Below are positions 6,794-62,436 of a stretch of 64,000 bases of DNA, piece by piece. Each line of letters begins with the position of its first letter. Within the stretch, counting starts at the first letter, position 1. This DNA is from an uncultured Candidatus Saccharibacteria bacterium (GTDB taxonomy: Bacteria; Patescibacteriota; Saccharimonadia; Saccharimonadales; CAIOMD01), in NCBI GenBank assembly GCA_964566135.1, contig CAZMHM010000001.1, forward strand, positions 133,829 through 197,828, read 5' to 3'. The notes below the pieces were generated by a model. It did not search any database. It was not told the origin of the DNA and saw nothing but the letters and a program-made list of their open reading frames with translations. Made by a program: the position numbers and the translations under genes.

Positions 6794-6868
6794 TGGCTGG
6801 GGATGAGGGATTCGAACCCCCGAATGCATGGACCAAAACCATGTGCCTTACCACTTGGCCAATCCCCA
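6794..6868 (-). tRNA. tRNA-Gln (anticodon TTG), CCA encoded
   Basis: TGGGGATTGGCCAAGTGGTAAGGCACATGGTTTTGGTCCATGCATTCGGGGGTTCGAATCCCTCATCCCCAGCCA. Cloverleaf checked by hand. Anticodon loop TTTTGGT. T-arm GGTTCGAATCC. Confidence 0.9.
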
Positions 6869-17232: not shown

Positions 17233-17613
17233 ATGATTGAAGTTTTAGACTACAGCGCGACCGAAACACAGGTCACACCCGATATCCGTGCACTAAGTAT
17301 ATTTGCAAACCAGCCCCAAGGGCTTTTAACGATTAGCCGTATCGCAGCCGTAATCTACGGCGGTACTAACAAGGCACAGCTCGTAGAGCTTGTTAATGCG
17401 GTATTAGATATAGAAACACCGCAAACGCCAGCTATCGATATCCTTAAACTTGGCGAAGTGCTAGAGCGCGTAGAATCATTTGCACATGCTTCTGGCGGGC
17501 TTGTTTTGGCAAGCTTTCAAGATGATGCGCCTACCGAACTTGTAACCAAGCTCGATCCATACGTGGTTGCCGGCGGTAGCACCTCAACCGAAAACATCGG
17601 TTTTTACTTGTAA
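17233..17613 (+). CDS. hypothetical protein
   Basis: 126-aa ORF of native composition. No motif recognised. Confidence 0.5.
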   Translation: MIEVLDYSATETQVTPDIRALSIFANQPQGLLTISRIAAVIYGGTNKAQLVELVNAVLDIETPQTPAIDILKLGEVLERVESFAHASGGLVLASFQDDAPTELVTKLDPYVVAGGSTSTENIGFYL

Positions 17614-17635
17614 CACTAACACCATAAATGGTTGC

Positions 17636-17666
17636 GGCCCCGCCCGATGATGTATCGGGCGGGGCC
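17636..17666. terminator. 13-bp perfect GC hairpin between convergent genes (islet A 3' end)
   Basis: GGCCCCGCCCGAT-gatgt-ATCGGGCGGGGCC. No clean U-tract on the minus strand. TTGTGGTTG follows on the plus strand. Confidence 0.6.
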
Positions 17667-17687
17667 TTGTGGTTGGGGGGTGGTGGG

Positions 17688-18251
17688 CTAGGCGTTGACG
17701 ACGATGACCGTCGTTCCGACCTCTGCCCACTTGTACAGCGCGGCTGCCTGTGCGAGACTCTTGAGTCCCACGCAGCCGTGGCTGTACCGGTAGCCGGCGG
17801 CGTACTCCGAGCTGTAGTGGATGCCCTGACCGCCGCTGAACGGCATGAAGTAGGGCATCTTGACGTGGTACAGGGTGCTGACCTTGCTCACGTACTTAGC
17901 GAAGATCCGATAGATCCCACGCCTGGTAGGCCAAGGGCCCGTACCATCGCTTGCGCGGTGGATACCCTCGGCACCATGACGTGCCGCCATCTTCATGATG
18001 GGCTTGTGGTTCTGCAGGGCAACCAGCTGCCACGACTTGATGCCGACGCAGATGACCTTGCCGTGCTTGCCGTTGTAGTTCCGGCACACGCTGGGAACCC
18101 AGCTGGGCATGGTCACTGCACTTGCTGTCGCCTTGACGGCGGTCGTAGTGCGCTGCGGGGAAACAGACGCACCGTTAGCGGGGAGGGCAACGAGCATAAG
18201 GCTCGCCACCAGTAGTGGCGCTATCGCCACCCACTTATGCCTCATCATCAT
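17688..18251 (-). CDS. secreted L,D-transpeptidase (YkuD domain), in GC-rich islet A
   Basis: Signal peptide MMMRHKWVAIAPLLVASLMLVALPANG. Catalytic motif SHGCVGL. Strong G/C at third codon positions. RBS GGAAGGA. Confidence 0.8.
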   Translation of the reverse strand: MMMRHKWVAIAPLLVASLMLVALPANGASVSPQRTTTAVKATASAVTMPSWVPSVCRNYNGKHGKVICVGIKSWQLVALQNHKPIMKMAARHGAEGIHRASDGTGPWPTRRGIYRIFAKYVSKVSTLYHVKMPYFMPFSGGQGIHYSSEYAAGYRYSHGCVGLKSLAQAAALYKWAEVGTTVIVVNA

Positions 18252-18284
18252 ATCCTTCCGGGTAGTTGACGTTTAGGCTAAATT

Positions 18285-30229: not shown

Positions 30230-30267
30230 TATTTAGTTCTATATAAACCAAAATTGGGCAGCAAATA

Positions 30268-30320
30268 GCCTCTGGTCTCACGCAGGGGCCATTTGCCTAA
30301 CACTGCGTGAGCCCAGAGGC
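30268..30320 (-). terminator. 18-bp GC hairpin (1 mismatch) 3' of the islet B gene
   Basis: GCCTCTGGTCTCACGCAG - 17-nt loop - CTGCGTGAGCCCAGAGGC. Confidence 0.5.
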
Positions 30321-30335
30321 TTCACGTTCGGATCT

Positions 30336-30698
30336 TCATCGGGTCGGCAGCATGCGCCACCAGTGGTACGGACCGTTGTAGTCCATGTTGCAGACATCCA
30401 CCTTCATGAACGTGTCGTTCTTGCGGGTGGGGATGGCCGGGACGAACTTGTCGCCGATGCAGTCGGTGTTGCCGTTGCCGGTGTGGTGCTTGCCGGTGTC
30501 GTCGACGAGTGCAGCGTGGATTCCCACCTCGCCACAGGCGCAGTCGACACAGCGCAGGTACGTGTGCTCGAGCACCTTGCCGTAGCAACGCCACAGCTTG
30601 ACGCCGGTCTTGCCACAGTTCCCGCAGACGTAGCTGCTGGGGACGGTGTTCTGGGTGTAGTCGACCGGCTCAGCCGGGTTAACTACCTTGGCCACCAT
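30336..30698 (-). CDS. GC-rich islet B: Cys-rich (zinc-ribbon-like) hypothetical protein, 120 aa
   Basis: GGAG lies 8 nt upstream of the ATG. Codon position 3 is almost always G/C. CGNCG...C..C.C motifs. The other three overlapping ORFs lack an RBS. Confidence 0.65.
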   Translation of the reverse strand: MVAKVVNPAEPVDYTQNTVPSSYVCGNCGKTGVKLWRCYGKVLEHTYLRCVDCACGEVGIHAALVDDTGKHHTGNGNTDCIGDKFVPAIPTRKNDTFMKVDVCNMDYNGPYHWWRMLPTR

Positions 30699-30741
30699 GT
30701 TGGTTTCTCCATCCCTTGAGATCAGATACGAACGATTGCCA

Positions 30742-32919: not shown

Positions 32920-32963
32920 ATATCAACATAATACACCCAATATCGTATCGTGCTAGTGGTAAC

Positions 32964-33008
32964 AAAATAAAAAAAGGCGGGGGAGCGGGCTGCATCCGCA
33001 GCCCGCCC
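32964..33008 (-). terminator. GC hairpin plus T-run terminator of the islet C gene
   Basis: Minus strand GGGCGGGCTGC-GGAT-GCAGCCCGCTCCC, then CCGCC TTTTTTTATTTT. Confidence 0.65.
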
Positions 33009-33028
33009 ACACTCGATATCGGCTGCTT

Positions 33029-33283
33029 TTACGGCTGAGCCGGCACAGCAGCGAGTGCCTTGAACTGCAGAAGCGAGTAGTCGATCCAACCAGGGTCGAA
33101 CCCGTACTCACTCTTGATGCAGTTCCTGAACGCCATTGCGACGTTCTTCTGGTAGTTCTCCTCGCCGGCCCTTGCTCGGGCGAACGAGTTGTCGTTGATG
33201 CGCATGCGCCCGATCGTCAGACGACGAGAACGCATGGACACTTCGTACACGGTACTGGCACCTCTCGGCAACCAAACCACCAC
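33029..33283 (-). CDS. GC-rich islet C: hypothetical protein (up to 84 aa; start uncertain)
   Basis: GC3-rich frame ending 20 nt before the terminator hairpin. An alternative internal start exists at MRSRRLTIG. Confidence 0.5.
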   Translation of the reverse strand: MVVWLPRGASTVYEVSMRSRRLTIGRMRINDNSFARARAGEENYQKNVAMAFRNCIKSEYGFDPGWIDYSLLQFKALAAVPAQP

Positions 33284-33418
33284 CTTACTGTAAAGTGCCC
33301 AACAATCTGCTGAGACAACAATACAGTATAATATTTAGTACTTTTTTGCAATTATAACTTGCCGAAACTAATTAACTATGTTAAATAAGTTGTAGTCCTC
33401 TAGTGTCAGGAGAATGTC

Positions 33419-33745
33419 ATGGCCCAGCGTAGCACTGGAAGCTACCACGCAGGGTTCTTGCGTGGTAAGGGCACGATGCTGTTCGACGACGAAGTGCTGC
33501 TCGAACTGCAGCACCCACGCCAGATGCACGTACGCCGTGCAGCAACCACCAGCAACGGGATCAGCGGGTGCATGCTGACCTGCGAGCTCGGCTCGGCGAC
33601 GGCGATTCCGTTCTTTGTACCGGACGCCGACGAGGTGCGCTACAAGGCGCTCAATCTTGCGCACTACATCGAAGGCCTGCAAGACGGCATCATGCGGCGT
33701 GCAACCGAGCTGAAGAGCAAGCGCATTCGTCAACTCGGCGCCTAA
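33419..33745 (+). CDS. GC-rich islet D: hypothetical protein, 108 aa
   Basis: CAGGAG lies 8 nt upstream of the ATG. GC3-rich. A terminator follows. The opposite-strand ORF 33368-33748 has neither an RBS nor a terminator. Confidence 0.6.
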   Translation: MAQRSTGSYHAGFLRGKGTMLFDDEVLLELQHPRQMHVRRAATTSNGISGCMLTCELGSATAIPFFVPDADEVRYKALNLAHYIEGLQDGIMRRATELKSKRIRQLGA

Positions 33746-33764
33746 CATTCCAACACTGAGGACT

Positions 33765-33802
33765 CCCGGGCGGCTATCGCTGCCCGGGTTTCTTCATTTT
33801 TT
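33765..33802 (+). terminator. rho-independent terminator of the islet D gene
   Basis: CCCGGGCGGC-tatc-GCTGCCCGGG (one G-U pair) followed by TTTCTTCATTTTTT. Confidence 0.7.
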
Positions 33803-33906
33803 GCATACGCTACCTAAATACTAATTACTAATAATACTTGGGTAGAGCCCCGTCTGGGCGGACCGCTGGATGCGATCTGCCCGAGACGGGAAGCCCTGGG
33901 GTGGTA

Positions 33907-34332
33907 CTACGCGGCGACGTTGCCGGCGATGCAGCTCCGGATGGTTCCGGGCACTGCGTCTTCGGTGAAGTCGACGTGCTCGATGAACGTGTGCTGTGCC
34001 TCGCGGTACGGCTTCTTCCAGCGCCGGATGACGTGGCGCCCCACCTTCGACTTCTTGAAGTAGTCGGGGTTGTTGGGATTGCGAACCACGACGATGGCGA
34101 TGAACGTCCAGTCGGTGACGACCAGGAAGCGCTCGCCTTCGACGCTGTCCTGCGCCGGATCGAGGCTCTTGATGCCGTCGGTCTCGACGTAGATCGTGTC
34201 GCACGTGTTATCGCCGGGGCTGGGCCAGCACTCGACGACGTAGAAGGGCGCTGCCGACTTGTGCAGGGTTACGTCCTCGTTGCTGACGTTGATGCGCTTG
34301 GCCATGTAACGCTCGAGCTTGTGTCGTTTCAT
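33907..34332 (-). CDS. GC-rich islet E: hypothetical protein, 141 aa
   Basis: GGGGGG lies upstream of the ATG. GC3-rich. An imperfect GC hairpin follows the stop, within 33852-33893. Confidence 0.6.
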   Translation of the reverse strand: MKRHKLERYMAKRINVSNEDVTLHKSAAPFYVVECWPSPGDNTCDTIYVETDGIKSLDPAQDSVEGERFLVVTDWTFIAIVVVRNPNNPDYFKKSKVGRHVIRRWKKPYREAQHTFIEHVDFTEDAVPGTIRSCIAGNVAA

Positions 34333-34376
34333 TGTCCCCCCAGGGGTAGTGCCTGCAGGGTAGCAGACGAAATTTC

Positions 34377-38611: not shown

Positions 38612-38635
38612 CACCTTAGAGACACATCAGTAGTA

Positions 38636-38664
38636 TTGCAAATTACTATAATTTATGGTATAGT
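38636..38664 (+). promoter_or_regulatory. sigma70-like promoter for the islet F gene
   Basis: TTGCAA-N17-TATAGT in AT-rich DNA about 30 nt before the GC-rich ORF. Confidence 0.5.
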
Positions 38665-38693
38665 ATTTATCGTCCAAACTCCTACCTAGGGAA

Positions 38694-39050
38694 GTGATTG
38701 ATTTGCATCGATTGAAGGACATCCGTGAGGCCCATGGTCTCACTGTCGCAGATCTGGCGGAACTGTCGGGCATCGCGCCCAGCACCATCTTCCGGATCGA
38801 AAGCGACGACAACTGGTACAAGGTGAACGAGGTCACAGCAGAGGCACTGGCGAGCGCGCTTTACAAGAGCGTGCTGGACATCTTCAACAGCCGTGAACTC
38901 AGCCACCTTGGGCGACCGCCACACACAGGGAGGCCATGTCATGAAGCCGAGAGATTCAGCAACCGGACGACCTGTCCGTCATGCCACCTCGAAGTTCTCA
39001 AGGCAGCCACCTGCAACGAGTGCGACGCGCCGCTCACCATGTCGGCCTAG
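38694..39050 (+). CDS. GC-rich islet F: XRE-family HTH regulator with C-terminal Cys4 zinc-ribbon-like tail
   Basis: HTH LTVADLAELSGIAPSTIFRIE. C-terminus CPSCH...CNEC. GC3-rich. GTG or TTG start. Confidence 0.7.
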   Translation: MIDLHRLKDIREAHGLTVADLAELSGIAPSTIFRIESDDNWYKVNEVTAEALASALYKSVLDIFNSRELSHLGRPPHTGRPCHEAERFSNRTTCPSCHLEVLKAATCNECDAPLTMSA

Positions 39051-39060
39051 CCGATACCCG

Positions 39061-39101
39061 CCCTCCGGGGCCAGACGATTCGTCGTCTCGGCCCCGGAGG
39101 G
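39061..39101 (+). terminator. 18-bp GC hairpin with UUCG loop (islet F 3' end)
   Basis: CCCTCCGGGGCCAGACGA-ttcg-TCGTCT(c)GGCCCCGGAGGG. Only a weak T-rich tail follows. Confidence 0.6.
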
Positions 39102-39164
39102 TTCTCCACATTACGACTTATGTTATACTGCTAATGCAGAAAAATTCTGCAGAGAAGAACTCTT

Positions 39165-55310: not shown

Positions 55311-55380
55311 ATTTGAAAATTATTATAACACTATTATACCATATTTGTCAATAATATACCTCTGTTGTACAATAGAGTTT

Positions 55381-55851
55381 ATGGCAATTAAAAAATCGCC
55401 GCAACCTGCGCAGATAGTAAATAAGCAGGCCCGGCGAGATTACGAGCTACAAAAGACCTATCAGGCCGGCATTATGCTTATTGGGCCAGAGGTAAAAAGC
55501 CTGCGCACTGGCCACGGCCATTTGCGTGGTGCGTTTGTGAACATTAAAGATGGCGAATTGTGGTTATACAACGCTACCATCAATGCTACGAACGCCAACC
55601 GCTCGGCATTGTCAGAATCAGACCAAACACGGGCACGGAAACTACTCGTTAGTAAAAAAGAACTTGGCGAACTCGCCGCTGCGAAAGAGCAGGGACTCAC
55701 TATCATCCCGCTGAAGTTACATACCAGCAAGCACTACATAAAAGTAGACATTGCTACTGCGAAAGGGCTCAAAAAATACGATAAACGCGAAAAGATAAAA
55801 AAACGTGATACTGGCCGAGATGTTGCGCGAGCACTTAAGAATATCTCTTAA
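55381..55851 (+). CDS. smpB: SsrA-binding protein
   Basis: Start moved to MAIKK. NKQARRDYE, GPEVKSLR and the C-terminal basic tail. Confidence 0.9.
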   Translation: MAIKKSPQPAQIVNKQARRDYELQKTYQAGIMLIGPEVKSLRTGHGHLRGAFVNIKDGELWLYNATINATNANRSALSESDQTRARKLLVSKKELGELAAAKEQGLTIIPLKLHTSKHYIKVDIATAKGLKKYDKREKIKKRDTGRDVARALKNIS

Positions 55852-55879
55852 GCAATTGCGTAACATCTTGAATTTCCCG

Positions 55880-55917
55880 CGAGGGCCCCGCACACCGTAA
55901 TGGTGGCGGGGCCCTCG
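55880..55917. terminator. 16-bp GC hairpin between smpB and the islet G gene
   Basis: CGAGGGCCCCGC(a)CACC-gtaat-GGTGGCGGGGCCCTCG. No U-tract. Confidence 0.55.
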
Positions 55918-55924
55918 ATCGTCG

Positions 55925-56284
55925 TCAGGTCAGGGCGGGCTGGTGCAGGCGGCGGTAGCTGATGTCGACACCAGTCGTCTCGACGCACTTGCCGATCCTC
56001 TTCTGGATGAGCGTGAGCGTCACGTGCACGTCATCGGTGTAGATGACGCAGCACGCCGTACTGCGGATGTTGGCGCGGGACTGCGACATGGGCGGCTTGG
56101 TGTCCGGGAAGAACACCTCGGAGCCCGCCGGGCAGTCGACGACCTTGGCTTCGCTGTGCTTGACGAACTGGAACGACGCATCGTGGATCAGCTTGGTTTT
56201 GCCACCACGAGCCATCGCGCTCTCGAAGAGAGCCGTGACCTGGTCCTGCCAGGCCTGTGCCGAGTCTGATGAAAGTTGCACCAC
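55925..56284 (-). CDS. GC-rich islet G: hypothetical protein, 119 aa
   Basis: GC3-rich frame with a GTG start. The opposite-strand ORFs 55943-56269 and 56043-56660 are judged artefacts. Confidence 0.55.
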   Translation of the reverse strand: MVQLSSDSAQAWQDQVTALFESAMARGGKTKLIHDASFQFVKHSEAKVVDCPAGSEVFFPDTKPPMSQSRANIRSTACCVIYTDDVHVTLTLIQKRIGKCVETTGVDISYRRLHQPALT

Positions 56285-56324
56285 ACCGTTCCTAACACTA
56301 GATTCCGACGATTTGGGTATACCT

Positions 56325-56353
56325 ACTATATACTATTTATGCTTACATTGCAA
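56325..56353 (-). promoter_or_regulatory. sigma70-like promoter for the islet G gene
   Basis: Minus strand TTGCAA-N17-TATAGT. Confidence 0.5.
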
Positions 56354-56363
56354 TATACTCACG

Positions 56364-56392
56364 TTGCAAAAATTATCATTTTATAGTCTAAT
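56364..56392 (+). promoter_or_regulatory. sigma70-like promoter for the islet H operon
   Basis: TTGCAA-N17-TCTAAT, followed by the leader hairpin CTTTCG(t)GGCC-atc-GGCCCGAAAG. Confidence 0.4.
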
Positions 56393-56451
56393 ACTAACTA
56401 GTCTTTCGTGGCCATCGGCCCGAAAGTTGCACCCCGACCCGAGGAGCACAA

Positions 56452-56622
56452 ATGCTGAGAAGAATCCTGTGCGCGCTTGGCGTACACGAGAAGCCTCCCG
56501 GCTACAGGCCGGACAGCAGTGGCAAGGTACACGAAGTGTGCCCTCGCTGCGGACACGGCCGCGTCTACGACGCAGCCGAACACGGCATGCTCAAGATGTC
56601 CCCCAACCACAAGGAGCAGTGA
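56452..56622 (+). CDS. GC-rich islet H gene 1: 56-aa zinc-ribbon protein (prophage-type C..G.H...C.RCG pattern)
   Basis: GAGGAG lies 5 nt upstream of the ATG. MLRRILCALGVHEKP...CPRCGHG. Its TGA stop directly abuts the ATG of the next gene (TGAATG). Below the ORF-track size cut-off. Confidence 0.6.
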   Translation: MLRRILCALGVHEKPPGYRPDSSGKVHEVCPRCGHGRVYDAAEHGMLKMSPNHKEQ

Positions 56623-57039
56623 ATGGGCCTGACCGATCAAGAAAAAGATCTACTCGATGACCTGGCGCAAGCCATGATCATCGAAGCCATGCTCGTACGT
56701 GGCGACATCGACAAGACCAACGCCGGCTACTGGTTGGACTTCATCCACCAGTTCAAGCACGGCAAGCGGTACGACTCGCCTCGTTACACCGAGCACCCCG
56801 AGCTCAAGTGGTACTACTTCATGACCGAGCAGGGCGTCACGCCCACCATCGCCATGAAGATGGCCTATCACATGGGCGGCAAGTTCGCCTGTGTCGAGGA
56901 TGGCATCACCTGGCTCAGCTCCGTCCGTGACGGTGACACTGATCCGCGAGTTCGTGAGATCAGCTGGAACCAGTACGCCGGCGGTCTGAACGAACTTCGC
57001 CAGATGCCCGGCGTCTCGACCGTGCTCAGTCCCTCGTAG
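56623..57039 (+). CDS. GC-rich islet H gene 2: hypothetical protein, 138 aa
   Basis: Closely coupled to the upstream micro-gene (stop and start adjacent). GC3-rich. A terminator follows. Confidence 0.6.
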   Translation: MGLTDQEKDLLDDLAQAMIIEAMLVRGDIDKTNAGYWLDFIHQFKHGKRYDSPRYTEHPELKWYYFMTEQGVTPTIAMKMAYHMGGKFACVEDGITWLSSVRDGDTDPRVREISWNQYAGGLNELRQMPGVSTVLSPS

Positions 57040-57049
57040 TACGGTTACC

Positions 57050-57105
57050 CCGAAGGGACGGGCGTTCACGACGAACGCCCGTCCCTCGGACGCACATTTT
57101 TGTTT
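57050..57105 (+). terminator. rho-independent terminator of islet H
   Basis: CCGA(a)GGGACGGGCGTTC-acgac-GAACGCCCGTCCCTCGG, then ..TTTTTGTTTG. Confidence 0.7.
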
Positions 57106-57167
57106 GTTATATTGCTAAATTATTTTTAGCCATACAACAAGCGAAGATTATCTTGTACAATACAGGT

Positions 57168-57404
57168 ATGACATCAGAGGTGCCAGATAAGTTCCCAGAT
57201 TTTAGCGGTGATACAAGTGGTACCGATAAAAAACTCTTGCTTGGAGTTGGTGCCCTTGGTGCACTTGGGCTAGCTGGGTTAATTTATAAGTTGGTGTCGG
57301 ATAAATCTCGAACATCAGCCGAAAGCGCCACAGAAAAACCGCCAGAACCAGAGACCGGTGAACCTCACAACCAAGAAAATGGGGGAACCAATGAAGATTT
57401 ATAG
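57168..57404 (+). CDS. small membrane protein
   Basis: Start at ATG 57168. One TM (LLLGVGALGALGLAGLIY). Acidic/Pro-rich tail. Confidence 0.5.
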   Translation: MTSEVPDKFPDFSGDTSGTDKKLLLGVGALGALGLAGLIYKLVSDKSRTSAESATEKPPEPETGEPHNQENGGTNEDL

Positions 57405-62349: not shown

Positions 62350-62436
62350 TGGTACCGCAGGCCGGACTTGAACCGGCACGAGGAAATCCTCACAAGATTT
62401 TGAGTCTAGCGCGTCTACCAATTCCGCCACTGCGGC
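62350..62436 (-). tRNA. tRNA-Leu (anticodon CAA), long variable arm, CCA encoded
   Basis: GCCGCAGTGGCGGAATTGGTAGACGCGCTAGACTCAAAATCTTGTGAGGATTTCCTCGTGCCGGTTCAAGTCCGGCCTGCGGTACCA. One U-U mismatch in the anticodon stem. Confidence 0.85.

What the first reader, a model, noticed from the sequence alone, without database searches (positions are those of the whole stretch)
55880..57105. Islets G and H: divergent high-GC units sharing a 110-bp AT-rich promoter hub, including a prophage-style zinc-ribbon micro-gene closely coupled to a 138-aa orphan
Gene G (55925-56284, minus strand) and the two-gene unit H (56452-56622 and 56623-57039, plus strand) diverge from an AT-rich spacer, 56290-56400. That spacer holds TTGCAA-N17-TATAGT on the minus strand and TTGCAA-N17-TCTAAT on the plus strand.

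The 56-aa H1 product (MLRRILCALGVHEKP...CPRCGHG) was missed by the ORF track. It has a perfect GAGGAG RBS, and its TGA stop directly abuts the ATG of H2 (TGAATG).

The C..G.H...C.RCG pattern is, from memory, typical of small (pro)phage proteins of the DUF1660 type.

Both units end in long GC hairpins (55880-55917 and 57050-57089). The block sits immediately after smpB, where ssrA-linked islands often integrate in other bacteria, but I could find no tmRNA gene here.
Basis: partly seen in the sequence, partly recalled or inferred. Interest (0 to 1): 0.55.

Follow-up and report, generated by a model that had tools for sequence, protein, structure and literature searches.

The report
GC-rich orphan gene module beside smpB
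Three small genes of unknown function, written in a foreign GC-rich codon dialect but driven by a native AT-rich two-way promoter, sit right after smpB in a tiny clade of Saccharibacteria; they are real and conserved, but they are not a prophage or a tmRNA-linked island, and why they stay GC-rich is unexplained.

Summary
Window 55880-57089 is a 59% GC block in a 45% GC Candidatus Saccharimonadales (CPR) genome. It holds gene G (minus strand) and the operon H1-H2 (plus strand, stop/start TGAATG). They diverge from a 25-30% GC hub carrying TTGCAA-N17-TATAGT and TTGCAA-N17-TCTAAT, and each unit ends in a strong GC hairpin.

The genes are real. GC3 is 0.77-0.86, and a 97%-identical natural variant differs by 19 synonymous against 8 nonsynonymous codons. 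The module is also found diverged (27-40% identity) at the same place in the closest relatives.

G and H2 are strict orphans. H1 is a basic Cys/His zinc-ribbon micro-protein with only weak, sub-threshold similarity to lactococcal-phage micro-proteins. Pfam DUF1660 is never hit. There is no prophage and no tmRNA.

The smpB-xth interval is, however, a hot-spot. Relatives carry an actinophage-type band-7 lipoprotein cassette there and remnants of the smpB 3' end.

The most interesting point is unexplained. Synonymous sites are saturated between lineages, yet GC3 stays near 0.8 against 0.40 +/- 0.05 for native genes.

Biochemical function remains unknown. My best guess is a fast-evolving conflict or host-interaction module of foreign, actinobacterial-type origin.

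The parts
55381..55851 (+). smpB, the native flanking gene and positional anchor of the module (GC3 0.48)
   Evidence: PF01668 E 1.6e-44. The same neighbour is present in all lineages carrying the module.
55880..55917 (.). GC-rich hairpin between the convergent genes smpB and G. It is the probable terminator of G (and of smpB), but has no U-tract on either strand.
   Evidence: -36.7 kcal/mol, z = -5.3. Conserved in L006 and L007 with compensatory changes, e.g. CGAGGG/CCCTCG versus CGTGGG/CCCACG.
55925..56284 (-). Gene G: a 119-aa orphan protein, predicted as one N-terminal helix followed by a beta-sheet
   Evidence: GC1/2/3 = 0.58/0.45/0.86. 6 synonymous vs 3 nonsynonymous codon differences against variant L004. 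Homologues at 31-33% identity in L006 and L007 (E 5e-14 and 7e-15). Only 3 clusters among 5.8 billion proteins. AF2 pLDDT 59.
56325..56353 (-). Promoter of G: TTGCAA (56348-56353) -N17- TATAGT (56325-56330)
   Evidence: ACTATATA and TTGCAA are conserved in L006 and L007.
56364..56392 (+). Promoter of H1-H2: TTGCAA (56364-56369) -N17- TCTAAT (56387-56392)
   Evidence: Sequence. 'TATRGTCTAAT' is invariant in four lineages. In L006 and L007 a single palindromic TTGCAA serves both directions; the window has a 16-bp insertion that duplicates it.
56403..56426 (+). Small hairpin in the 5'UTR of the H transcript (weak evidence)
   Evidence: Fold z = -1.9. The two substitutions in variant L004 (56409, 56414) fall in the bulge and the loop.
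56441..56446 (+). Shine-Dalgarno GAGGAG of H1, 5 nt before the ATG
   Evidence: Sequence.
56452..56622 (+). Gene H1: a 56-aa basic (pI 9.0) Cys/His zinc-ribbon micro-protein, the conserved core of the module
   Evidence: GC3 0.77. C7, C30, C33 and R37 are invariant, with a His 3-5 residues after C7, in four lineages. Exhaustive phmmer found no full-length relative. Weak zinc-ribbon matches.
56623..57039 (+). Gene H2: a 138-aa acidic (pI 5.1) orphan, mostly helical, translationally coupled to H1 (TGAATG)
   Evidence: GC3 0.81. 12 synonymous vs 5 nonsynonymous codon differences against L004. One homologue, in L006 (28% identity, E 4e-7). Only itself among 5.8 billion proteins. pI.
57050..57089 (+). 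GC-rich hairpin terminator of H1-H2, followed by a T-run (CACATTTTTG)
   Evidence: -35.2 kcal/mol, z = -5.8. The stem GGGACGGGC/GCCCGTCCC is identical in L006 and L007. Terminator-like call. Variant L004 diverges completely from the window right after this hairpin.

Best explanation
The block is a real accessory gene module restricted to a small clade of a Candidatus Saccharimonadales (Saccharibacteria/CPR) bacterium. It lies in a variable hot-spot between smpB and xth.

Shown:
- Three protein-coding genes under purifying selection.
- G on one side and the H1-H2 operon on the other are set up for divergent transcription from a compact AT-rich back-to-back sigma-70-type promoter. The promoter is built around the palindromic -35 hexamer TTGCAA: one shared copy in relatives, two copies 16 bp apart here.
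- Each unit is closed by a conserved GC hairpin.
- The module was already present before three lineages split. It evolves fast (27-40% identity where SmpB keeps 77-80%).
- Its conserved core is the promoter plus H1, a basic Cys/His zinc-ribbon micro-protein. The gene behind H1 is always acidic but can be swapped.

Inferred:
- The actinobacterial-style codon usage (GC3 about 0.8), and the actinophage-type band-7 lipoprotein cassette at the same hot-spot in relatives, point to capture from the high-GC host or actinophage gene pool. Saccharibacteria-type promoters were then added.
- H1 probably binds zinc and nucleic acid, or its acidic partner, as a two-protein pair.
- Rapid divergence and partner swapping suggest a conflict or host-interaction role (toxin/antitoxin-like or phage-derived regulator) and argue against housekeeping.
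- Where the -35 box is shared, RNA polymerase can probably load in only one direction at a time, so G and H1-H2 would compete for expression.
For: - Host identity.
- Not an assembly artefact: identical or 97%-identical copies in independent ENA and Logan assemblies.
- Coding: GC3 0.77-0.86 in the proposed frames. 19 synonymous vs 8 nonsynonymous codon differences, with 19 of 29 substituted bases at codon position 3; the antisense ORFs give 7 vs 25.
- Conservation: G, H1 and H2 homologues sit directly after smpB in L006, L007 and L010. The G tree matches the species tree.
- Promoter and hairpin conservation.
- Orphan status.
- Discrete composition class: native ORFs have GC3 0.404 +/- 0.046 (maximum 0.55), islet genes 0.73-0.90. 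The hub is 25-30% GC, like native spacers.
- Hot-spot: the lipoprotein cassette in relatives has dS 0.23-0.40 against a saturated background and matches only actinophages (93 records; phrog_200). smpB 3'-end remnants occur in L007 and L010. L004 has a different right flank.
- Basic H1 with an acidic partner in all four lineages.
Against: - No homologue of G or H2 was found in any actinobacterium, phage or plasmid, so the foreign origin rests on composition and on the neighbouring cassette, not on a donor.
- If the module has been resident since before the lineages split, its GC3 should have decayed toward 0.4. It has not, and the model does not explain this.
- Tree congruence for three taxa is weak evidence (1 chance in 3).
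- Homology of the L006 and L010 H1 proteins rests on position, size, charge and the Cys/His motif more than on score.
- There are no expression data.
- The structure models are low-confidence (pLDDT 59 and 52) and match nothing, so the functional proposal is inference only.
Confidence: 0.6

Rival explanations
1. One reading: a remnant prophage or integrative islet of the ssrA/smpB-linked kind, with H1 a DUF1660-type prophage micro-protein.
For: - The H1 profile aligns with Lactococcus phage P162 gp79 (hhalign probability 90%, 39% identity over 41 columns).
- gp79 has a sub-threshold DUF1660 hit (18.4 bits against a cutoff of 21.4).
- Window H1 hits gp79's family phrog_17479 at E 0.038, and L007 H1 hits phrog_15735 at E 2.2e-4.
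- L007 and L010 carry remnant smpB 3' ends, a footprint of insertion at smpB.
- The neighbouring cassette in relatives is actinophage-like.
Against: - Pfam DUF1660 never hits H1 or its homologues.
- The gp79 pair was picked from a non-significant tblastn hit (E 0.3), so the hhalign E-value is not corrected for the database search.
- G and H2 have no match in 50,697 phages, IMG/VR or plasmids, and H1 has none in IMG/VR.
- There is no integrase or phage gene in the flanks and no tmRNA.
- The module is inherited along the species tree.
Confidence: 0.12
2. A recent, not yet ameliorated horizontal transfer straight from the actinobacterial host of this epibiont.
For: - GC3 of 0.77-0.86 with actinobacterial-style codons.
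- GC hairpins without U-tracts, as I recall is common in Actinobacteria (own knowledge).
- An actinophage-type cassette at the same hot-spot in relatives.
Against: - No homologue anywhere outside the clade.
- The module is present in three or four lineages, with synonymous sites saturated between them (dS 1.0-1.6, 4-fold-site identity 0.2-0.5).
- The internal hub is AT-rich and matches the host's promoter type.
Confidence: 0.08
3. A toxin-antitoxin-like or other conflict module. H1 would be a small DNA/RNA-binding zinc-ribbon antitoxin or regulator, the variable acidic gene behind it the effector, and G a divergently controlled partner.
For: - Small translationally coupled genes (TGAATG).
- A basic/acidic pair in all four lineages, with the partner swapped for H2, a 72-aa ORF, or a 32-aa hydrophobic peptide.
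- Very fast protein evolution (dN about 0.9 against 0.16-0.18 for SmpB).
- A back-to-back promoter typical of autoregulated switches.
Against: - No PADLOC, Pfam or NCBIfam toxin, antitoxin or defence domain.
- No fold match.
- Nothing distinguishes this from any other small-protein pair.
- It overlaps with, and does not exclude, the best explanation.
Confidence: 0.15
4. H1 (with or without H2) is functionally tied to SmpB and ribosome rescue, which would explain why it always sits beside smpB.
For: - H1-type ORFs lie directly downstream of smpB in four lineages.
- The H1 profile gives weak zinc-ribbon matches that include ribosomal proteins and a TFIIS-type ribbon.
Against: - It has its own promoter and terminator.
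- It is absent from L008, L009 and about 75 other smpB loci.
- The same interval holds unrelated cassettes.
- Its fast evolution is unlike a core translation factor.
- The adjacency is explained by a hot-spot plus vertical descent.
Confidence: 0.04
5. Artefact: an assembly chimera with actinobacterial DNA, or spurious ORFs in GC-rich non-coding DNA.
For: - Gene callers on other public contigs chose the antisense ORFs (108 aa and 139 aa) instead of G and H2.
- Long ORFs are common in GC-rich DNA.
Against: - The same junctions appear in at least five independent assemblies.
- Codon-position GC and the substitution pattern single out the proposed frames.
- Homologues are conserved in relatives.
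Confidence: 0.01

Closest known systems
Genomic islets and 'moron'-like accessory cassettes at chromosomal hot-spots (own promoter plus own terminator, atypical composition)
   Same: Self-contained transcription units with their own promoter and hairpin terminator. Composition is sharply different from the host. The site shows presence/absence and content variation among relatives, and a neighbouring cassette is clearly phage-derived and recently exchanged.
   Different: The islet is GC-rich in an AT-richer genome, which I recall is the reverse of the usual case. There is no phage or integrase context. The module is inherited vertically over a divergence that saturates silent sites, yet it has not ameliorated.
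Pfam DUF1660 (PF07874) and small phage zinc-ribbon micro-proteins (phrog_17479, phrog_15735; Lactococcus phage P162 gp79)
   Same: The C-x-(L/M)-G-x-H ... (E/D)-V-C-x-(R/K)-C(G) signature and a size of about 40-60 residues per unit. hhalign probability 90% to gp79 unit 1. Weak PHROG hits.
   Different: Below every curated threshold: no Pfam hit at all. gp79-type proteins occur only in 8 Lactococcus phage records. H1 sits in a CPR chromosome with no phage genes. The function of DUF1660 is unknown anyway.
C(P)XCG zinc-finger micro-proteins of haloarchaea (HVO_0758 family) and generic zinc ribbons (TFIIS/RPB9 C-terminal ribbon)
   Same: A one-domain micro-protein of about 50-60 aa with a CPxCG knuckle (CPRCG, CPSCG). 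Weak hits to NF041912/PF23137 for L007 H1 and to PDB 1qyp (E 0.002) and 8q5b.
   Different: The first ligand pair is Cys-x3-5-His, not a second CPxCG. Scores are far below the cutoffs (17.6 bits against 70). The lineage and context are unrelated.
Type II toxin-antitoxin operons
   Same: Two small genes with abutting stop and start codons, a basic and an acidic partner, modular partner exchange, fast evolution and a compact regulated promoter.
   Different: No recognisable toxin or antitoxin domain, and a third, divergently transcribed gene (G) belongs to the unit in three lineages.
Bidirectional bacterial promoters arising from sequence symmetry (I recall these described for symmetric -10 elements)
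   Same: Divergent transcription units driven from one short symmetric AT-rich element.
   Different: Here the symmetric shared element is the -35 hexamer TTGCAA, with a -10 box at N17 on each side. The same layout recurs at two other islets of the window, 33323-33351 and 38613-38664. Function has not been shown experimentally.

Membership tests
Pfam DUF1660 (PF07874, prophage protein) | Match to the family HMM at or above the gathering score (21.4 bits) | tested here: not met
   No DUF1660 hit for H1 at E <= 1, nor for any of the four H1-family members at E <= 10.
Pfam DUF1660 (PF07874, prophage protein) | Cys/His signature CxxGxH ... CxRCG | tested here: met
   H1 has C7-ALGV-H12 ... C30-PR-C33-G, and the ligands are conserved in homologues. 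The same signature occurs twice in phage P162 gp79, whose second unit gives the sub-threshold DUF1660 hit.
Pfam DUF1660 (PF07874, prophage protein) | Encoded in a phage or prophage | tested here: not met
   No phage genes in the flanks. No match for G, H1 or H2 in INPHARED phages or IMG/VR.
Genomic island integrated at ssrA/tRNA | A tmRNA or tRNA gene at the island boundary | tested here: not met
   ARAGORN and Rfam find only tRNA-Gln (6794-6868) and tRNA-Leu (62350-62436) in the window, and nothing next to smpB in L006, L007, L009 or L010.
Genomic island integrated at ssrA/tRNA | An integrase, and a direct repeat of the target's 3' end (att) | tested here: inconclusive
   No integrase among the flanking ORFs and no repeat in the window. 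However, L007 (6534-6605) and L010 (871-933) carry a remnant second copy of the smpB 3' end, so insertion at smpB happened in relatives.
Zinc ribbon / C(P)XCG zinc-finger micro-protein | Four conserved metal ligands in two knuckles within a protein of about 50-60 aa | tested here: met
   C7, C30 and C33 are invariant, with a His 3-5 residues after C7, in four lineages. Weak profile matches to solved zinc ribbons (1qyp E 0.002). Zinc binding itself is not testable here.
Zinc ribbon / C(P)XCG zinc-finger micro-protein | Match to a curated family model (HVO_0758: NF041912, PF23137) | tested here: not met
   Only L007 H1 matches, at 17.6 bits against a cutoff of 70 and at E 0.012 in Pfam.
Type II toxin-antitoxin system | Two small adjacent co-oriented genes with overlapping or abutting stop and start codons | tested here: met
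   TGAATG at 56620-56625. In L006 the spacer is 9 nt and contains AGGAG.
Type II toxin-antitoxin system | A recognisable toxin and/or antitoxin domain | tested here: not met
   No Pfam, NCBIfam or PADLOC hit for any member. No fold match.
Type II toxin-antitoxin system | Toxicity neutralised by the partner; autoregulation at the promoter | not testable with these tools
   Needs expression experiments.
Sigma-70-type promoter | -35 and -10 hexamers at 17-nt spacing, conserved in relatives | tested here: met
   (TTGCAA-N17-TATAGT); sequence for TTGCAA-N17-TCTAAT. TTGCAA, ACTATATA and TATRGTCTAAT are conserved across lineages. Transcription start sites are not testable here.
Intrinsic (rho-independent) terminator | A stable GC hairpin followed by a U-tract | tested here: inconclusive
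   Both hairpins are very stable and conserved. The H hairpin is followed by CACATTTTTG. The G/smpB hairpin has no U-tract on either strand.
Integron gene cassette | An attC recombination site shared among cassettes, and an IntI integrase | tested here: not met
   The hairpins of the window's islets share no sequence, the cassettes carry their own promoters, and no integrase lies nearby.

The most novel reading that the evidence does not exclude
The high GC3 of this and the other islets may not be a fading scar of transfer but an actively maintained state. Silent sites have turned over completely between lineages, yet they stay about 80% G/C inside units that begin at a native promoter and end at the terminator hairpin. 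That would mean a force specific to these cassettes. Candidates are selection for host-like (actinobacterial) codon or RNA composition, because the products or transcripts act in or on the high-GC host, or continual gene conversion from an unsampled GC-rich mobile pool shared by Saccharibacteria. On this reading the palindromic TTGCAA hubs would act as a capture-and-expression platform for host or phage genes in an epibiotic CPR bacterium.
Probability: 0.1. Interest if true: 0.8.

Novelty: new variant of a known kind. Interest (0 to 1): 0.42.

Why it matters
Saccharibacteria are obligate epibionts of Actinobacteria. The literature I could search notes a lack of evidence for gene transfer between such partners (PMC8406219).

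This window shows a 45% GC Saccharimonadales genome dotted with about 60% GC single-gene units. Each has a native-type promoter and a GC hairpin. At the same hot-spot, relatives carry a cassette whose only relatives are actinophage band-7 lipoproteins. That is a concrete, testable trace of gene flow from the host or phage pool into a CPR bacterium.

The G/H1/H2 module adds two things:
- Three new protein families confined to one small clade.
- A puzzle for composition-based dating of transfers: a foreign codon dialect that persists although silent sites are saturated.

If that persistence is selected, it says something new about how epibionts use acquired genes. If it is not, the module is an ordinary set of orphan accessory genes.

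Tried and rejected
- Pfam, PHROGs, NCBIfam and PADLOC on G, H1, H2 and their homologues: nothing significant.
- tblastn against 50,697 phages and 72,556 plasmids: nothing for G or H2; H1 only at E 0.3.
- 5.8-billion-protein search with H2, with G, and with a G-family profile: only self hits and the two relatives' versions.
- Exhaustive phmmer of H1 against 1.84 billion representatives: only long repeat proteins sharing a CxxC motif.
- IMG/VR scans for G, H2 and H1: none. The H1 alignment was too variable to scan with.
- AlphaFold2 of G (4-sequence alignment, pLDDT 59) and H2 (single sequence, pLDDT 52): low confidence. Foldseek against the PDB gave best E-values of 0.27 and 4.6, so nothing usable.
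- Profile searches against PDB sequences: nothing for G or H2.
- Metagenome scan with the hub's DNA signature (ACTATA-N17-TTGCAA-N12-28-TATRGTCTAAT): two chance hits in AT-rich, eukaryote-like DNA.
- tmRNA near smpB: none by ARAGORN or Rfam, including permissive scans of the conserved leader in relatives.
- Paralogy among the window's islet proteins: none.
- Integron-cassette idea: rejected, because the hairpins share no sequence and the units carry their own promoters.
- RNA-mediated (retrogene) capture, suggested because GC-richness seems to start near the transcription start: not supported. The 5'UTRs in relatives are only about 42-47% GC by my own count of the sequences, and one bidirectional hub would need two insertions.
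- Assembly chimera: rejected.
Full report
**1. What is there**

The window has 45% GC overall. Five sharply bounded segments of 57-60% GC stand out: 17594-18279, 30248-30727, 32943-34373, 38681-39144 and 55838-57117. The last one is the finding.

- G is at 55925-56284 on the minus strand (119 aa, GTG start).
- H1 is at 56452-56622 (56 aa). GAGGAG lies 5 nt upstream of its ATG.
- H2 is at 56623-57039 (138 aa). Its ATG abuts the TGA of H1.
- An AT-rich hub lies between G and H1, at 25-30% GC. It carries TTGCAA(56348-56353)-N17-TATAGT(56325-56330) on the minus strand and TTGCAA(56364-56369)-N17-TCTAAT(56387-56392) on the plus strand.
- GC hairpins lie at 55880-55917 (-36.7 kcal/mol, z = -5.3) and 57050-57089 (-35.2 kcal/mol, z = -5.8).

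smpB lies immediately upstream (PF01668, E 1.6e-44). An exonuclease III-type gene (xth) lies downstream. There is no tmRNA in the window.

**2. Are the ORFs genes?**

GC-rich DNA throws up long ORFs in several frames. Gene callers on other public contigs in fact chose the antisense ORFs of 108 and 139 aa.

- Codon-position GC is 0.58/0.45/0.86 for G, 0.63/0.46/0.77 for H1 and 0.58/0.39/0.81 for H2. That is the signature of a high-GC coding sequence. The antisense ORFs merely mirror it.
- A natural variant (L004, Logan SRR7122375, about 97% identical) differs by 6:3, 1:0 and 12:5 synonymous:nonsynonymous codons in G, H1 and H2. The total is 19:8, with 19 of 29 changed bases at codon position 3. 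The antisense ORFs give 7:25.

The block with the same smpB junction is present in at least five independent ENA and Logan assemblies. It is therefore not a chimera.

**3. Whose genome, and is the module elsewhere?**

A scan of one genome per species with SmpB identifies the host as Candidatus Saccharimonadales (Saccharibacteria, CPR). The closest relatives carry the same architecture directly after smpB:
- L006: SmpB 80% identical.
- L007: SmpB 77% identical.

The shared architecture runs hairpin, G-like gene (minus strand), AT-rich hub, H1-like micro-ORF, a second ORF, hairpin.

Protein identities to the window are low:

| Protein | Identity to window | E-value |
|---|---|---|
| G | 31-33% | 7e-15 and 5e-14 |
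| H1 (L007) | 40% | 7e-5 |
| H2 (L006 only) | 27-28% | 4e-7 |

Content varies among lineages:
- L007 has an unrelated 72-aa ORF in place of H2.
- L010 (SmpB 61% identical) lacks G. It keeps the 'TATAGTCTAAT' -10 region and an H1-type ORF, followed by a 32-aa hydrophobic ORF and a 41-aa basic ORF.
- None of the other roughly 75 smpB loci has anything similar.

The conserved core is thus the H promoter plus H1. Across four lineages H1 keeps C7, C30, C33, R37 and a His 3-5 residues after C7. It is always basic (pI 9.0-10.1), and it is always followed by an acidic product (pI 4.1-5.1). The assignment of the L006 and L010 micro-ORFs to the H1 family rests on position, size, charge and motif more than on alignment score.

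**4. Non-coding anatomy**

In L006 and L007 the hub reads ACTATA-N17-TTGCAA-N17-TCTAAT. A single palindromic -35 hexamer has a -10 box at the canonical spacing on each strand. The window differs by a 16-bp insertion that duplicates TTGCAA.

'TATRGTCTAAT' is invariant in all four lineages. L006 and L007 have TGG before TCTAAT, which is extended -10-like.

The same TTGCAA-centred layout recurs at two other islets of the window, 33323-33351 and 38613-38664. The latter matches the full symmetric pattern, for which zero occurrences are expected by chance.

Both hairpins are conserved with compensatory changes, for example CGAGGG/CCCTCG against CGTGGG/CCCACG. The stem GGGACGGGC/GCCCGTCCC is identical in three lineages.

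The G/smpB hairpin has no U-tract. The H hairpin is followed by a T-run.

A small 5'UTR hairpin (56403-56426) is only weakly supported (z = -1.9). The two L004 substitutions there fall in the bulge and the loop.

**5. What are the proteins?**

G and H2 are strict orphans:
- No Pfam, PHROGs, NCBIfam or PADLOC family.
- No hit in 50,697 phage genomes, 72,556 plasmids or IMG/VR.
- Among 5.8 billion clustered proteins, only themselves. With a G-family profile, only the L006- and L007-type versions appear, and both lie beside smpB.
- AlphaFold2 models are low-confidence. G has pLDDT 59 (one helix plus about seven strands). H2 has pLDDT 52 (mostly helical). Foldseek and PDB-sequence profiles return nothing.

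For H1, an exhaustive phmmer over 1.84 billion representatives found no full-length relative.

The DUF1660 recollection was tested directly. Pfam never reports DUF1660 for H1 or its homologues, even at E <= 10, so membership is not met. The remembered motif is nevertheless real:
- The best (non-significant, E 0.3) phage hit is Lactococcus phage P162 gp79. It is a tandem duplication of C-x-(L/M)-G-x-H-K ... (E/D)-V-x0-1-C-x-(K/R)-C.
- Its second unit gives a sub-threshold DUF1660 hit, 18.4 bits against a cutoff of 21.4.
- The H1 profile aligns with its first unit at hhalign probability 90%, with 39% identity over 41 columns. That E-value is for one comparison, chosen after a database search, so it is a lead and not proof.
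- Independently, L007 H1 hits phrog_15735 at E 2.2e-4. Window H1 hits gp79's own family phrog_17479 at E 0.038.
- The H1 profile weakly matches solved zinc ribbons (1qyp, E 0.002).

H1 is therefore best described as a Cys/His zinc-ribbon micro-protein. It loosely resembles phage micro-proteins whose function is equally unknown.

**6. Origin and evolution**

Native ORFs of the window (n = 67) have GC3 of 0.404 +/- 0.046, with a maximum of 0.55. Islet genes in their correct frames have GC3 of 0.73-0.90. GC1 and GC2 are near native values, so the difference is one of codon dialect.

Identities for three native genes and G:

| Gene | L006 vs L007 | Window vs L006/L007 |
|---|---|---|
| GH-like gene | 92% | 65% |
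| Hydrolase-like gene | 70% | 24% |
| SmpB | 86% | 77-80% |
| G | 60% | 33% |

The G pattern fits vertical descent of a fast-evolving gene. With three taxa, though, congruence alone has a one-in-three chance.

Synonymous sites between L006 and L007 are saturated both in native genes (dS 1.8 to more than 3; 4-fold-site identity 0.32-0.41) and in G (dS 1.5; 0.39). Yet the GC at 4-fold sites is 0.68-0.90 in G, against about 0.4 in native genes.

The module includes a Saccharibacteria-type AT-rich hub that has diverged in step with it (69-72% identity). It has therefore resided in Saccharibacteria throughout that time. By a rough two-state estimate (my inference, not a tool result), GC3 should by now have relaxed most of the way to 0.4. 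It has not, and this is the one feature I cannot explain.

**7. The neighbourhood is a hot-spot**

- In L006, L007 and L010 a second GC-rich cassette follows the module. It encodes a membrane protein plus a 309-318-aa lipoprotein.
- Its dS between lineages is only 0.23-0.40, and protein identity is 91-96%, although SmpB is 68-86% identical. This indicates recent exchange.
- Its only phage relatives are 93 actinophage records (Mycobacterium 90, Rhodococcus 2, Corynebacterium 1). They are annotated as band-7-like membrane protein or lipoprotein, and the cassette matches phrog_200.
- L009 has a related phrog_200 gene directly after smpB.
- L007 and L010 also carry a remnant second copy of the smpB 3' end. 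Their functional smpB genes share a surrogate end. This is a footprint of DNA insertion into the 3' end of smpB itself.
- Variant L004 has a different right flank from base 57090 on, resembling the promoter of the relatives' second cassette.

No tmRNA gene is nearby in any lineage. No integrase is seen in the flanks examined.

**8. Interpretation**

Best-supported reading (confidence about 0.6): a clade-restricted, fast-evolving accessory module of foreign, actinobacterial-type origin. It is fitted with a native back-to-back promoter and kept at the smpB-xth hot-spot.

How it most likely works:
- Divergent, possibly competing, transcription of G and H1-H2 from the TTGCAA hub.
- H1 as a zinc-binding basic micro-protein that works with its acidic, exchangeable partner.
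- A role in conflict or host interaction is inferred from rapid divergence and partner swapping. None of this is shown.

Rivals:
- Prophage or DUF1660 islet: 0.12.
- Recent direct host transfer: 0.08.
- Toxin-antitoxin-like module: 0.15. This is a functional sub-hypothesis, not exclusive of the best reading.
- SmpB-linked function: 0.04.
- Artefact: 0.01.

**9. Verdict**

As gene content this is a set of ordinary orphan accessory genes.

As genome biology it is moderately interesting, for three reasons:
- It is one of several host-dialect cassettes in a CPR epibiont.
- It uses an unusual shared -35 bidirectional promoter.
- Its GC3 has not decayed.

Interest 0.42; new variant of a known kind.

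Noticed in passing
window 17594-18279, 30248-30727, 32943-34373, 38681-39144: Four more 57-60% GC islets with the same build: an AT-rich sigma-70-like promoter, a GC-rich CDS with GC3 0.73-0.90, and a GC hairpin. They encode a secreted YkuD L,D-transpeptidase (17688-18251, minus strand), a 120-aa protein with 8 Cys (30336-30698, minus), three orphans (33029-33283 minus, 33419-33745 plus, 33907-34332 minus) and an XRE-type HTH fused to a Cys-rich tail (38694-39050, plus). Apart from YkuD and the HTH, there are no Pfam, PHROG or phage hits.
   Followed up: partly
window 33323-33351 and 38613-38664: The palindromic -35 hexamer TTGCAA with a -10-like box at N17 recurs at other islets. At 38613-38664 the full symmetric pattern ANNNTA-N17-TTGCAA-N17-TANNNT is matched, with zero occurrences expected by chance. 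At islet 3 one TTGCAA lies between two divergent units.
   Followed up: partly
L006 7740-8234, L007 7735-8229, L010 1470-1856, L009 6440-6845 (absent from the window): A conserved AT-rich non-coding element of about 350-500 nt sits downstream of smpB and upstream of the band-7/lipoprotein cassette. It has a consensus TTGACA-N17-TATAAT promoter. Several blocks are invariant across lineages, e.g. GGTGC.TAGTTAG, ATTACAAG.TAGACGC and GATCTGGGAAGCACAGTACC. There is no Rfam match, even in permissive scans. RNAalifold predicts 54 pairs, 12 with compensatory changes. It may be an undescribed structured RNA or long regulatory leader.
   Followed up: partly
L006 8513-9469, L007 8508-9458, L010 2164-3090; L009 6846-7811: A GC-rich lipoprotein (band-7-like, phrog_200) cassette at the same hot-spot. 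It is 91-96% identical between lineages whose SmpB is only 68-86% identical (dS 0.23-0.40 against a saturated background). Its only phage relatives are 93 actinophage records. This is evidence of recent lateral exchange and of an actinophage-type source.
   Followed up: yes
L007 6436-6605 and L010 763-933: The functional smpB genes of L007 and L010 end in a shared surrogate C-terminus (KRQVLKKR...). About 100 nt further on lies a remnant copy of the ancestral smpB 3' end (KREKIKKRDT...-type; E 1e-7 to 3e-9). This looks like the scar of an insertion that targeted the 3' end of smpB.
   Followed up: partly
L004 (Logan SRR7122375) 1244-1298, compared with window 57090 onward: A 97%-identical strain variant of the module has a completely different right flank, starting right after the H terminator. 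The flank carries TTGACA-N17-TATAAT like the leader promoter of L006 and L007. The second cassette therefore appears to be present or absent among close strains.
   Followed up: partly
L003 1380-1706, L005 1081-1407 and 1788-2207: Automatic gene calls on public contigs picked the antisense ORFs (108 aa opposite G, 139 aa opposite H2). The substitution pattern (7 synonymous vs 25 nonsynonymous codon differences) and the GC periodicity show that these are the wrong strand.
   Followed up: yes
window 55345-55381 and 57140-57170: Native genes here look leaderless. The -10 box of smpB (TACAAT, 55368-55373) ends 7 nt before its ATG at 55381, and the small ORF at 57168 has TACAAT just upstream. The islet genes instead have 5'UTRs of 30-50 nt with strong Shine-Dalgarno sites. 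A perfect 12/12 TTGACA-N18-TATAAT lies at 55351-55322 on the minus strand.
   Followed up: no
Lactococcus phage P162, KJ489013.1 50848-51144 (L091 368-664): gp79 is an internal tandem duplication of a zinc-ribbon unit of about 40 residues. It is found in only 8 Lactococcus phage records. Only its second unit touches DUF1660, and only below threshold.
   Followed up: partly
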